Positions 17,643-20,327 of a stretch of 64,000 nt of DNA are shown here, piece by piece; position 1 is the first letter of the stretch; each line of letters opens with the position of its first letter. The notes beneath the pieces were generated by a model. It was given only the letters and a program-made list of their open reading frames with translations, searched no databases and was not told the DNA's origin. Origin of the DNA: Streptococcus parasanguinis (GTDB lineage: Bacteria; Bacillota; Bacilli; Lactobacillales; Streptococcaceae); contig JAGZZN010000001.1 of the NCBI GenBank assembly GCA_018377375.1, positions 3,676-67,675 on the forward strand, read 5' to 3'. Made by a program: the position numbers and the translations under genes.

Positions 17643-17943
17643 GGGAAGCCTACTTTCTAATAAATTCATACTCTTAAGTATACCAAAATTTTAATACGAT
17701 TACCATTAGATATCCATTAGATACGGTTAGTTGATTCACTATGTTTTAGGTGTGTTTGGATATCGCTCAAATAAGTTGAATACCACGTTTTGTAAATTTA
17801 CTCCATGAATTTTAACTTTCTTCAACTGGCGCATTTCTATATCTTACCAACTTAACTCCCATTCCTTATAGTAGGTTTTATTTCTTAACCTCCTTATTTT
17901 TTACCCCTTTCTGATATAATAGTCACAGAAAGGAGGGCTTTAT

Positions 17944-18468
17944 ATGCCTTTTACTGAACTTGAAGTCCAAACTTGGACATTGTATACAACTGTGGTTATT
18001 GCTCTAGTGGGGTTCTTTTTTAACATTGTATCCCTTCATCGTACAAAGCGAGCCGAGGAAGATATGGCTAGGCCATATGTAAATGTCTTTGTCGATTTAT
18101 TTGAAATAAAGGACCGACAAAGAGTTTATGTTATTAAAAATTTCGGAAAGACACCTGCCTACATTACCGACATAACTGTCCATGGGAATCTAGGTATCTA
18201 TAATCAGCATAATTTTAAATCTCTTGTAGGAAATATGATTGCTCCTGGTCAAAAATTCACTTCTAATATTGAAGATGATTTTAAAGGATCATCGAAAATC
18301 ACGATTTCATACAGAGATAACAATAGGAAAGTATACCAAGATACTTTTACACTGGATACAAATATAGGTTTGACTATGTCATACACTTTAAATGAATCTA
18401 ACAAAACAGATGAGATTCCAAGTACTATAAGACAATCTACAATGGCGCTGTTACGTGCGTTTCGCTAA
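17944..18468 (+). CDS. Phage-associated hypothetical protein, single N-terminal TM plus beta-rich domain
   Basis: Extended -10 TGaTATAAT at 17912-17920, aaggaggg RBS, intact 174 aa ORF. Confidence 0.8.
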   Translation: MPFTELEVQTWTLYTTVVIALVGFFFNIVSLHRTKRAEEDMARPYVNVFVDLFEIKDRQRVYVIKNFGKTPAYITDITVHGNLGIYNQHNFKSLVGNMIAPGQKFTSNIEDDFKGSSKITISYRDNNRKVYQDTFTLDTNIGLTMSYTLNESNKTDEIPSTIRQSTMALLRAFR

Positions 18469-18499
18469 TTTTAGTTCCATTGTCATAATGAACTACAGT

Positions 18500-18643
18500 T
18501 CAAACATCTCCACTTGTTTTAATATTGATATGTACTTTTTCATCGTCAAGCGTGTTGGCGATGATTTTATTTTTTGCGTCGATAGCATCATTAATATTAT
18601 TTGCATAAATTTCATATACAATATCAACATTTGCATTAGCCAT
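18500..18643 (-). CDS. Small phage hypothetical protein (47 aa, MANANVDIVYEIYANN...)
   Basis: aggaggtg RBS overlapping the HTH stop; manual translation. Confidence 0.55.
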   Translation of the reverse strand: MANANVDIVYEIYANNINDAIDAKNKIIANTLDDEKVHINIKTSGDV

Positions 18644-18657
18644 GTAATTTTCACCTC

Positions 18658-18843
18658 CTATCTAAATTCGTCCAAGCTGACCTCTAGTGCATCAGCTAAT
18701 TTGCACATATTCGTCCAAGACATCTCTTTCAATTTTCCAGCCTTTAAGTTAGAAAAATTCGATTGAGAAATACCTGACTTTTTAGCTAGTCGATACACCG
18801 ACCAGCCCCTTGATTTTAATTGTTGTTCAATCTTTTCCTACAT
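18658..18843 (-). pseudogene. XRE/Cro-like HTH regulator with nonsense codon at position 2
   Basis: Reads ATG TAG then EKIEQQLKSRGWSVYRLAKKSGISQSNFSNLKAGKLKEMSWTNMCKLADALEVSLDEFR. Confidence 0.8.
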
Positions 18844-18848
18844 TTTAA

Positions 18849-18906
18849 ACACTATATGTTGTGTATGCGCAACATATTTAATCCTTTTTATCACTATATA
18901 TTGAAA
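18849..18906. promoter_or_regulatory. Putative tandem NrdR boxes (18849-18864, 18891-18906), the second overlapping the -35 of a TTGAAA-17-TATAAT promoter
   Basis: acactatatgttgtgt and tcactatatattgaaa vs consensus acaCwAtATaTwGtgt; 42 bp apart. Confidence 0.6.
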
Positions 18907-18989
18907 AACAAAAGCTTTTACATTATAATGTATCTTGGCTAAGGCCTCTCACAGTTTTAGTCAAGATTTCAATGGAAAGGAGAAACACT

Positions 18990-19208
18990 ATGTCAAAATT
19001 ACGACCTAGACCTCAAAAGAATTATCCTAACTATAACTGGGATGATTTAGATCGCACCATTCAAACAATTCTAAGCGATCCATTATATAAGGTTTGTCAC
19101 ATAGATCCATCGCTTTATGCAATTCCTAAAGATGAAATTATTTCCGAGTGCATAAGTGCAGGTTATACAGTTGAAGAATGTGAAGATGGAATTCTGAATA
19201 TTTCGTGA
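18990..19208 (+). CDS. Small acidic phage-associated hypothetical protein (72 aa, MSKLRPRPQKNYPNY...)
   Basis: Consensus-like promoter 18901-18929, aaaggag RBS before ATG at 18990. Confidence 0.75.
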   Translation: MSKLRPRPQKNYPNYNWDDLDRTIQTILSDPLYKVCHIDPSLYAIPKDEIISECISAGYTVEECEDGILNIS

Positions 19209-19321
19209 CTTGCCAAATTGGCTGCTTTTACTTCAAGAGCGCTAATTCTTGTTAGTAAGTCTATCGACACCTCGATAGGCTTTTTTCTTTTTCCGCTATA
19301 CGGATATCGTTTAGGTTTCAT
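19163..19321 (-). CDS. Small phage protein (52 aa, MKPKRYPYSGKRKK...)
   Basis: N-terminus typical of streptococcal phage early-region micro-ORFs; aaggtgaaag RBS. Confidence 0.6.
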   Translation of the reverse strand: MKPKRYPYSGKRKKPIEVSIDLLTRISALEVKAANLASHEIFRIPSSHSSTV

Positions 19322-19396
19322 TCTTTCACCTTCTTATTATTTAATTCCCTATCGTTATTTGGTATAATAAACTAAAAACGATTGGGGTTAGTATTT

Positions 19397-20047
19397 ATGT
19401 CTGATAAAGTTTGTTTCATTATAAGCGCAATTGGGGAATCTGGTACTCCCACAAGAGAACGGGCTGACAAAGTATATAAATACCTTATTGCTCCAGTTTG
19501 CGAAGATTTAGGTTATAAACCGATTCGCGTTGACCATGTCAATGCAGTAGACAATATCAATGAAACGATTATAAACTACCTAAAAACTGCTCATATGGTT
19601 GTTGCGGATATGACAGAACACAATCCAAATGCATTTTACGAACTAGGTTTTAGACAAGCGCTAGAGCTTCCGCTTGTACCGATCATAGAATCTGGTGGAA
19701 AACTTCCTTTTGATGTCATCACGACCCGTACTACTTTTTATGATACAGATGTGTCAAGAATCGAAGAATCAAAAGTTGACCTCAAATCTAAAATGCAAAG
19801 TTTTGAAAACTTTAAAATGCCTATTAGCCGTCTTGACAAAGCTACAACTCTCGAATCTATTGATAAAAAGTTAAATCAAAAGTTAGATAAAATTTTATCA
19901 TTGCTAGAACGTTCAGATTACAATCTGATCACATCTAATACTTTACGTTTTCGAGATTCTGATTATAAAGAAAATGGTCTTATTTTATCGAGCATTAAGG
20001 GTCTTGATCTTTTGCATCAAGAACACCACGAAGATAAAAATAGCTAG
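19397..20047 (+). CDS. Nucleoside 2-deoxyribosyltransferase-like (NDT/TIR-like fold) domain protein
   Basis: CFIISAIG...VVADMTEHNPNAFYELGFRQAL...LPFDV motif; extended -10 TGgTATAAT at 19360-19368. Confidence 0.75.
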   Translation: MSDKVCFIISAIGESGTPTRERADKVYKYLIAPVCEDLGYKPIRVDHVNAVDNINETIINYLKTAHMVVADMTEHNPNAFYELGFRQALELPLVPIIESGGKLPFDVITTRTTFYDTDVSRIEESKVDLKSKMQSFENFKMPISRLDKATTLESIDKKLNQKLDKILSLLERSDYNLITSNTLRFRDSDYKENGLILSSIKGLDLLHQEHHEDKNS

Positions 20048-20152
20048 ATCTTGTTGACGTTGTAATTCAATGATTTCTTCAAACCTTTTATTAATTAGTG
20101 TAACAGTCCTCAACACTTCATTGATGGCTGTTTTTTCTACTTCATTTGCCAT
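19985..20152 (-). CDS. Small phage hypothetical protein (55 aa, MANEVEKTAINEVLRTVT...)
   Basis: agaggtg RBS; phage-type micro-ORF; the tail may be frameshifted. Confidence 0.5.
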   Translation of the reverse strand: MANEVEKTAINEVLRTVTLINKRFEEIIELQRQQDLAIFIFVVFLMQKIKTLNAR

Positions 20153-20157
20153 TTTTT

Positions 20158-20268
20158 CTACACCTCTTTTTCAATTTTTGATTCAAGCGCTCGCAGTTCA
20201 ATTTCGTGAGCAACGTTGGCCATTAATTTCATGCATTTGGCTTTTTCCTTCACTGTAAGTTTCAGATA
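20158..20268 (-). pseudogene. 3' fragment of a small phage gene (...KCMKLMANVAHEIELRALESKIEKEV)
   Basis: HEIELRALES motif recalled from streptococcal phage proteins; appears 5'-truncated at the remnant edge. Confidence 0.5.
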
Positions 20269-20327
20269 CCAAAAAAGAAGCACGAACGCACTTCTTTTCC
20301 TAGTTCTAGGGCCTGAATTCTCTATTT

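What the first reader, a model, noticed from the sequence alone, without database searches (positions are those of the whole stretch)
18849..18929. Tandem NrdR-box-like sites controlling a phage-derived switch: a dNTP-sensing prophage cassette?
Seen: between the divergent Cro-like HTH gene (minus) and the 72-aa gene (plus) lie acactatatgttgtgt (18849-18864) and tcactatatattgaaa (18891-18906). They match the NrdR consensus acaCwAtATaTwGtgt at 15/16 and 12/16 and start 42 bp apart. Box 2 covers the -35 (TTGAAA) of a TTGAAA-17-TATAAT promoter; box 1 ends 5 bp from the HTH start codon. Established: NrdR is the dATP/ATP-sensing repressor of ribonucleotide reductase genes and binds tandem boxes spaced by whole helical turns. 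No nrd gene is nearby. Inference: a phage module wired to the host dNTP sensor, so dNTP depletion (replication stress or infection by another phage) would derepress the small protein and possibly, by read-through, the downstream deoxyribosyltransferase-like gene.
Basis: partly seen in the sequence, partly recalled or inferred. Interest (0 to 1): 0.8.

Follow-up and report, generated by a model that had tools for sequence, protein, structure and literature searches.

The report
NrdR-gated cargo slot in streptococcal prophages
A remnant of a streptococcal prophage keeps a promoter built like the host's own DNA-precursor promoter, with two binding sites for the sensor protein NrdR, and related prophages put many different small genes, some resembling anti-phage genes, behind the same promoter, so these genes probably switch on when the cell's DNA building blocks run low, as happens during phage attack.

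Summary
The two boxes are real and are very probably a true NrdR operator. With a matrix from host nrd promoters, the pair ranks 2nd in the genome, between nrdH and nrdD. It has the 26-bp spacer of streptococcal operators, and box 2 covers the -35 as at nrdD.

The layout recurs in a widespread prophage module: an NrdR pair (31-32 or 41-42 bp apart), a small XRE gene, and a divergent sigmaA promoter feeding a swappable cargo gene. About 18 cargo families occur, including Abi-alpha and DUF2188/PDC-S16. The sites stay the same while the XRE recognition helix changes, so they are not simply the XRE's operator.

Corrections: this copy is no working switch. It is a 2.6-kb remnant without integrase or cI, and its XRE gene has a stop at codon 2. 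A terminator and a separate promoter argue against read-through into the deoxyribosyltransferase-fold gene.

The same cargo genes occur equally often without NrdR boxes. No binding or expression data exist, and the 72-aa protein's function is open. I found no paper on this; the scan has noted NrdR boxes at phage non-nrd genes on other DNA.

The parts
17680..17688 (.). Left 9-bp direct repeat (att core) bounding the element
   Evidence: Single copy at the empty site in G019; the same core bounds longer remnants L465 and L466
17944..18468 (+). 174-aa prophage accessory gene (phrog_9607) with its own promoter-like site at 17844-17872
18540..18564 (+). Intrinsic-terminator-like hairpin after the 174-aa gene
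18658..18843 (-). XRE/Cro HTH gene (HTH_26, 61 codons), pseudogene with TAG at codon 2; member of the NrdR-linked HTH family
   Evidence: no second family member in G000
18849..18864 (.). NrdR box 1 (21.0 bits; best single site in the genome)
18854..18877 (.). Overlapping inverted repeat (8-bp arms): candidate HTH operator or RNA hairpin over the uORF start
18852..18888 (-). Conserved Shine-Dalgarno sequence in the box spacer plus a 7-codon uORF (18875-18852) ahead of the HTH gene
18891..18906 (.). NrdR box 2 (10.9 bits); positions 11-16 are the -35 hexamer
18901..18929 (+). sigmaA promoter TTGAAA-17-TATAAT of the cargo gene
   Evidence: best of 10 sites, 11/12; same register in 46 of 53 distinct pair haplotypes
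18935..18965 (+). 5' leader hairpin shared by many streptococcal prophage cargo cassettes; probable recombination junction for cargo swapping
   Evidence: (11-bp stem but z = -0.7); contig X3 swaps cargo between 18982 and 19296
18990..19208 (+). 72-aa cargo gene (phrog_7409); small alpha/beta fold, function not shown
19257..19282 (+). Intrinsic terminator ending the cargo transcript
   Evidence: (z = -4.32; 0 of 200 shuffles fold as well)
19360..19368 (+). Extended -10 (TG-N-TATAAT) in front of the NDT-like gene
   Evidence: sequence; the same motif in 5 of 5 relatives checked
19397..20047 (+). 216-aa gene with an N-terminal NDT/DNPH1-type fold (invariant D71, E82) and a helical tail; second cargo slot, without NrdR boxes
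20266..20274 (.). Right 9-bp direct repeat; the int-cI part present in relatives is missing on its inner side

Best explanation
The two boxes are an operator for the host repressor NrdR, co-opted by a temperate-phage module. In intact prophages the module lies in the early (cro/antirepressor) region. A small XRE gene runs with the lytic operon, and a sigmaA promoter fires the other way into an exchangeable cargo slot. dATP/ATP-loaded NrdR would bind both boxes and cover the -35, as at host nrdD. When dATP falls (a replicating phage, or replication stress), NrdR leaves and the cargo is transcribed up to its own terminator. The most likely purpose (about 0.45) is an infection sensor for defence-like cargo. 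The XRE may modulate the promoter during the prophage's own lytic cycle (inferred). In this genome only a 2.6-kb remnant survives: the XRE is dead, and the NrdR-gated promoter and 72-aa gene are intact. Shown: sequence, rank, geometry, conservation, cargo swapping, decay. Inferred: binding, repression, induction, purpose.
For: Rank 2 in the genome, beside nrdH and nrdD. Host nrdH/nrdD pairs lie 31-32 or 41-42 bp apart in 58 of 60 loci by best-pair search, one of them (L197) mis-picked; nrdD box 2 covers the -35 (PMC12051234 passages). 62 of 65 close viral homologues keep 42 bp. In 36 unique haplotypes the six NrdR-conserved positions are invariant in both boxes, while positions 7, 12, 15 and 16 vary. 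65 of 77 family loci have an upstream pair, against 3 pairs in the other 359,525 bp and 0 of 55 weaker HTH hits. Spacing jumps between 31-32 and 41-42 among subfamilies with different recognition helices. The -35 register with 17-bp spacer and perfect TATAAT holds in 46 of 53 haplotypes. Cargo: 124 calls in 20 clusters (about 18 families); Abi_alpha-type 15, DUF2188/PDC-S16 13, YjzC 11, KTSC 2. Abi-alpha is a proven prophage Abi in E. faecalis (PMC6356687 passages). Lytic SpSL1 infection strongly induces the pneumococcal NrdR regulon from 10 min (PMC6755750 section 9), although SpSL1 has no strong pair itself. The island is near-identical (1 mismatch in the segments spanning 18469-20265) in L083, whose flanks differ by 4-13%, which suggests recent spread.
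Against: No binding or expression data; the RNA runs were contigs only. Pneumococcal NrdR binds 25-26-bp-spacer sites weakly in vitro (KD 11-15 uM native; 2.9 uM synthetic vs 41 nM at 16 bp), so repression may be partial. Box 2 here is weaker than all 47 training boxes, and the -35 is TTGAAA where 46 of 65 homologues have TTGACA. The same cargoes occur as often without boxes: pair+HTH 50, neither 50, HTH only 8, pair only 0, of 108 loci. NrdR control is therefore not needed for cargo function, and the boxes travel with the HTH, not with the cargo. E. faecalis abi-alpha is expressed constitutively. Only about a quarter of cargoes match defence or defence-candidate models; the 72-aa protein matches none. 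Loci include near-copies and are not independent.
Confidence: 0.72

Rival explanations
1. NrdR binds, but the main target is the phage's own lytic programme: the operator gates the XRE gene and downstream early genes (as a roadblock or through an internal promoter), or times cargo expression to the phage's own DNA replication. The XRE may be an NrdR modulator.
For: Pairs go with the HTH family, never without it; 10 of 80 viral loci found by DNA pattern alone carry this family. The family's C-terminal helices are far more conserved than its recognition helix. A conserved SD and start codon lie between the boxes.
Against: No conserved sigmaA promoter was found in the HTH direction (best -10 positions scatter), whereas the cargo-side -35 register is fixed. 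In remnants the HTH start is broken in three ways (ATG TAG, CTG TAG, ATT) while boxes stay. C-terminal conservation is partly due to the search seed.
Confidence: 0.14
2. The pair is mainly a decoy: multiplying phage DNA titrates NrdR and so derepresses host ribonucleotide reductase.
For: Tandem boxes are common in viral contigs far from nrd genes: 61 of 80 shown loci at 31/32/41/42 bp, and 1 of 80 with an nrd gene detectable with the host NrdH/E/D queries. Some loci carry arrays (L270, L275).
Against: The precise overlap with a strong promoter's -35 is not needed for a decoy. SpSL1 induces the regulon without a strong pair. Long-spacer sites are weak binders. A single-copy remnant cannot titrate.
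Confidence: 0.07
3. The boxes are operators of the phage HTH (Aca-like autoregulation), and the NrdR likeness is incidental.
For: An inverted repeat overlaps box 1. Its register tracks one recognition-helix residue in 65 of 65 rows: Q with one register (16), P/A/T/S with the other (49).
Against: That co-variation needs only 2 changes on the tree, one on a long branch, and concerns the overlapping repeat, not the boxes. The boxes keep NrdR's degeneracy and its 3- or 4-turn spacing across unrelated recognition helices. The Aca11 operator is a different sequence (PMC12658196 section 12). The HTH may still bind the overlapping repeat in addition to NrdR.
Confidence: 0.05
4. At this locus the site is a non-functional relic of a decaying prophage.
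For: Integrase, cI and lytic genes are gone, the HTH is dead and the -35 is weakened.
Against: All three plus-strand cargo ORFs, both boxes and the promoter are intact, and the island is near-identical across genomes with diverged flanks. Near-identity may only reflect recent transfer, so it does not prove selection.
Confidence: 0.12

Closest known systems
NrdR operator of streptococcal nrdDG and nrdHEF promoters (PMC12051234; PMC13584703)
   Same: Two 16-bp boxes with C4/A6/A8/T9/T11/G13, a 26-bp spacer (the long streptococcal type), box 2 containing the -35, and an intact nrdR in the same genome.
   Different: Lies in prophage DNA in front of a non-nrd, exchangeable gene and back to back with an XRE gene; the spacer holds an SD, a uORF start and an overlapping inverted repeat.
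Prophage and satellite hotspots of antiviral genes (PMC9122126, search listing and abstract start only) and prophage Abi-alpha (PMC6356687, passages)
   Same: A fixed position in the prophage holds variable small genes, including Abi_alpha (PF14337, E = 1e-47) and the PADLOC candidates PDC-S47 and PDC-S16.
   Different: Here the slot's promoter carries a host dNTP-sensor operator. E. faecalis abi-alpha was reported as constitutive. Most cargoes, including the 72-aa protein, match no defence model.
Host-regulator-controlled prophage genes, such as LexA-box-controlled antirepressors (recalled, no call)
   Same: The phage reads a host stress signal through a host repressor site.
   Different: The signal is the dATP/ATP state via NrdR rather than ssDNA/RecA; streptococci are not listed with a LexA regulon in Table 2 of PMC3616900 (passage).
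Aca proteins, e.g. Aca11 of Streptococcus prophages (PMC12658196, outline and section 12)
   Same: Small HTH beside small accessory genes, with inverted repeats near promoters.
   Different: Different repeat sequence; the HTH is divergent from the cargo rather than co-transcribed; no Aca-named structure among 28 PDB hits; no acr gene identified.
SPD_1594-1595 of S. pneumoniae, an NrdR-site-preceded regulator operon induced by phage infection (PMC6755750)
   Same: Non-nrd genes with a regulator, reported behind an NrdR site and induced on infection.
   Different: The operon I take for it by position next to trpA (position recalled; seen in 1 of 4 genomes, L582) encodes a longer XRE protein of more than 180 aa, not this 61-aa family, with at best one 8.1-bit box. 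The identification is uncertain.

Membership tests
NrdR operator | Two 16-bp boxes with C4, A6, A8, T9, T11, G13 | tested here: met
   definition from PMC13584703
NrdR operator | Spacer of 15-16 or 25-26 bp (whole helical turns) | tested here: met
   26 bp here; family pairs at 31-32 (28) or 41-42 (102) of 134; PMC12051234
NrdR operator | Score within the range of host nrd operators | tested here: met
   Pair 31.8 bits vs nrdH 36.6 and nrdD 30.1; box 2 alone (10.9) is just below the training minimum of 11.5
NrdR operator | Overlap with or closeness to a promoter | tested here: met
   Box 2 positions 11-16 = -35, as at host nrdD
NrdR operator | Host encodes NrdR | tested here: met
   TIGR00244, 193 bits, no stops
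NrdR operator | dATP/ATP-dependent NrdR binding and repression | not testable with these tools
   Needs EMSA/MST and reporter assays
NrdR regulon (classical) | Regulated genes encode ribonucleotide reductase or dNTP-supply functions | tested here: not met
   The regulated gene is a 72-aa phage protein; the NDT-fold gene lies behind a terminator and its own promoter
Lysis-lysogeny switch (cI/cro) | Intact repressor and Cro pair around a divergent promoter, with integrase | tested here: not met
   HTH pseudogene; cI and integrase absent from the element; in intact phages cI lies elsewhere
Aca-regulated anti-CRISPR operon | HTH co-transcribed with an acr gene and binding a promoter inverted repeat | tested here: inconclusive
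   The HTH is divergent; no Acr library was searched; an overlapping repeat exists
Anti-phage defence gene (72-aa cargo) | Match to a known defence family or shown protection | tested here: inconclusive
   No PADLOC, Pfam or NCBIfam hit; fold only weakly like Smr/R3H/Alba (best Z 6.0, rmsd 2.4, 65 aligned)
NDT/DNPH1 N-glycosidase superfamily (216-aa gene) | Flavodoxin-like NDT fold with the catalytic Glu motif | tested here: met
   Top Foldseek hits are NDTs and DNPH1 (E = 6e-5 to 1e-3); D71 and E82 invariant in 11 rows and aligned to Rcl; activity not tested

The most novel reading that the evidence does not exclude
Temperate phages of streptococci and other Bacilli carry a general 'dNTP-alarm' cassette. 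Host NrdR keeps a swappable anti-phage gene quiet in the lysogen and releases it when an invading phage drains dATP. A dedicated XRE family, made only in the prophage's own lytic cycle, overrides the alarm (by binding the repeat over box 1 or by contacting NrdR), giving self/non-self discrimination. Hosts then domesticate the cassette by losing the XRE, as in this genome, and spread it horizontally.
Probability: 0.3. Interest if true: 0.85.

Novelty: new variant of a known kind. Interest (0 to 1): 0.68.

Why it matters
NrdR is treated in the papers read here as a repressor of ribonucleotide reductase genes. A conserved phage module that puts accessory genes under NrdR would make the cell's dNTP state a signal that prophages read, and would give a simple way to sense infection by unrelated phages without recognising a phage protein. 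The slot also points to about 18 small gene families as candidates for defence or counter-defence screens. The experiment is easy, because streptococcal NrdR has been purified and the NrdR regulon is known to be induced by phage infection.

Tried and rejected
RNA evidence: 10 runs found, none holding half the words; 4 were laid, all contigs, so nothing can be said on start, strand or level.

Function of the 72-aa protein: no Pfam, PADLOC or NCBIfam hit; 22 close homologues only; Atlas hits under 0.9 and unnamed; fold searches gave no clear match (best Z 6.0; no BFVD match with E <= 0.001).

SPD_1594 as a family member: not supported.

Titration as the cause of NrdR-regulon induction by SpSL1: only a weak 6.4 + 6.4-bit pair in its genome.

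A promoter in the HTH direction: none conserved.

Leader hairpin as a specially stable RNA: z = -0.7.

A frameshift in the HTH, which I first suspected by eye: none; only the codon-2 stop.

Literature: searches showed no title or abstract on NrdR operators at phage non-nrd genes. Most hits were seen as listings only. Subscription papers (including Rodionov and Gelfand 2005, recalled) and RegPrecise are not covered, and no supplements were opened; those of PMC3616900 and PMC6755750 may list such sites.

Rows dropped: 3 of 111 loci (short or truncated upstream); 80 of 120 stretches were shown; 30 loci were fetched; training boxes excluded non-canonical spacings and L197, so the matrix is not a test of spacing in hosts.

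Full report
OBSERVATION. The sequence is as described: box 1 at 18849-18864 (15/16) and box 2 at 18891-18906 (12/16), 42 bp apart. Box 2 ends in the -35 of TTGAAA-17-TATAAT, the best promoter-like site of 10 in 17.0-21.5 kb. Genome-wide only two sites reach 15/16. The host's own nrdH and nrdD pairs are 41 bp apart, and nrdR is intact. I built a matrix from 47 unique boxes of 60 streptococcal nrdH/nrdD loci. The three best tandem pairs in the genome are nrdH (36.6 bits), this site (31.8) and nrdD (30.1); the fourth scores 19.3. No equal pair arose in 20 Mb of simulated DNA. PMC12051234 (abstract and passages) reports 25-26-bp spacers as typical of streptococci, and box 2 of nrdDG containing the -35. 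The site copies that layout.

THE LOCUS. The element runs from about 17689 to 20265 between rnc and a DUF454 gene. It is bounded by a 9-bp direct repeat that is single at the empty site in G019. Longer remnants at the same site in relatives keep cI, and in one case the integrase, with Abi-alpha in place of the 72-aa gene. This copy has lost them. It holds three intact plus-strand genes (174, 72 and 216 aa), each with a promoter-like site, and fragments of minus-strand early genes. The HTH gene has TAG at codon 2. All 65 close viral homologues read ATG TGG. Among 21 close genomic loci, the 6 at this site are broken in three ways and the other 15 are intact; L088, at another site, also has the stop. 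G000 has no second copy. The genomes with the same island are named S. parasanguinis-group records. In L083 the segments spanning 18469-20265 differ by 1 base while flanking genes differ by 4-13%. A terminator at 19257-19282 (z = -4.3) and an extended -10 at 19360-19368 separate the 72-aa gene from the 216-aa gene. Five relatives of the latter have the same extended -10 and no NrdR pair. Its N-terminal domain has the NDT/DNPH1 fold and matches a PADLOC effector model at E = 7e-16.

CONSERVATION. Among 65 close viral homologues the spacing is 42 in 62, 41 in 2 and 43 in 1. In 36 unique haplotypes the six positions that PMC13584703 names as conserved (passages) are invariant in both boxes, and variation falls on NrdR's tolerant positions. 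The spacer is not free: it keeps an SD and a start codon. Among 77 wider family loci, 65 have an upstream pair, against 3 pairs in the remaining 359,525 bp and 0 of 55 weaker HTH hits. Four streptococcal subfamilies with different recognition helices use 41-42 bp (two) or 31-32 bp (two). Members in Carnobacterium, Trichococcus, Lysinibacillus, Psychrobacillus and Amphibacillus have pairs; others have one strong box or none (12 of 77 without a pair). Phages LF1 (32 bp) and phiFL3A (30 bp) have pairs too. In 46 of 53 distinct haplotypes box positions 11-16 are the -35 with a perfect TATAAT 17 bp on; most exceptions are non-streptococcal. Searches by DNA pattern alone recover the same family. In viral contigs 61 of 80 shown pairs lie at 31/32/41/42 of 18 allowed spacings; 10 loci carry this HTH and only 1 a detectable nrd gene. 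In 251 streptococcal genomes 92 match a stricter pattern and the reversed control matches none; the 30 loci fetched are nrd promoters, these modules and a few others. These loci include near-copies.

CARGO. The gene behind the promoter is exchangeable. Of 146 loci, 134 have a pair, and 124 cargo calls fall in 20 clusters (about 18 families). They include Abi_alpha/PDC-S47 (15), DUF2188/PDC-S16 (13), YjzC (11), KTSC (2) and the 72-aa family (12). One contig swaps cargo exactly between 18982 and 19296. Searching from the cargo side gave the main result against a simple story. Of 108 loci of the 72-aa and Abi-alpha genes, 50 have pair and HTH, 50 neither (mostly an extended -10 promoter with the same leader), 8 the HTH only, and 0 a pair only. 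NrdR control is therefore one of two promoter modules, and it is tied to the HTH. The 72-aa protein folds as a small alpha/beta domain (pLDDT 80) with only weak likeness to Smr/R3H/Alba domains; nucleic-acid binding is a guess.

MECHANISM. [quoted passage not shown] Lytic infection by SpSL1 strongly induces the pneumococcal NrdR regulon from 10 min (PMC6755750, section 9 and passages), and SpSL1 has no strong pair that could titrate NrdR, so nucleotide drain is the likelier cause (inference). Any NrdR-gated promoter would then report phage replication. Inferred: in a lysogen NrdR damps the cargo promoter and releases it on infection or replication stress. With Abi-alpha, a proven prophage Abi (PMC6356687, passages), and defence candidates among the cargoes, defence is the likeliest purpose (about 0.45). 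Repression may be partial, because long-spacer sites bind weakly in vitro. The HTH's role is open. An inverted repeat overlaps box 1, and its register follows one recognition-helix residue in 65 of 65 rows, but with only 2 changes on the tree. It could be an HTH operator about 70 bp upstream of the predicted cargo start, or an RNA hairpin over the uORF start. Repeated loss of the HTH in defective prophages fits a role confined to the lytic cycle.

COMPARISON AND NOVELTY. The site meets every testable feature of an NrdR operator except the regulated gene. It is not a cI/cro switch, and nothing ties it to Aca11 (PMC12658196, outline and section 12). Eight literature searches showed no report of NrdR operators on phage accessory genes; the library is incomplete and supplements were not opened. 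Earlier notes of this scan describe NrdR boxes at phage and island genes on other DNA; none matched this sequence. They are unchecked and I count them as leads only.

VERDICT. A real NrdR-type operator and a new use of a known regulator, seen here in a domesticated remnant. The wider module is more interesting than this copy. Interest 0.68.

Noticed in passing
G000:C48:16953-16968 (outside the window): The genome's only other 15/16 NrdR box (19.8 bits) lies 7 bp after a TATAAT and ahead of a two-gene operon that looks like hicAB (name from recall of the sequence pattern). No partner box was found within 20-50 bp.
   Followed up: partly
L218, L227, L241, L242, L243, L289, L295: Mu-like GemA genes in viral contigs are preceded by tandem NrdR-type boxes 41-42 bp apart.
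   Followed up: no
L261, L284; L279: Tandem NrdR-type boxes directly upstream of Abi_2 (Abi-like) genes, and near an AntA/KilAC antirepressor.
   Followed up: no
window 18852-18888 (-) and homologues L001-L065: A conserved SD and start codon in the box spacer open a uORF through box 1. A variable T/A tract after box 1 puts it in frame with the HTH, stops it just before, or runs it out of frame: possible translational coupling or phase variation.
   Followed up: partly
window 19397-20047: Prophage-borne NDT/DNPH1-fold protein with a helical tail and a PADLOC effector match; a candidate nucleotide-cleaving defence effector, which if active could itself lower dNTPs and release NrdR (speculation).
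   Followed up: partly
window 18935-18982 and 19296-19321: The shared leader and the conserved start of the small antisense ORF on the other side flank the cargo and seem to act as recombination handles for cassette exchange.
   Followed up: partly
G031:C16:13030-13142; L270, L275: Arrays of four or more NrdR-type boxes in a streptococcal genome and in viral contigs.
   Followed up: no
L465:4113-5911: The longer remnant carries a three-gene block (309, 114 and 174 aa) between cI and integrase that looks like an ATPase/STAS-like/PIN-domain set (names from recall); possibly another defence system.
   Followed up: no
L426, L437, L439, L440: NrdI-like operons (names from recall of the sequences) with 31-bp NrdR pairs; three lie divergent from a Crp/Fnr-like regulator.
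   Followed up: no
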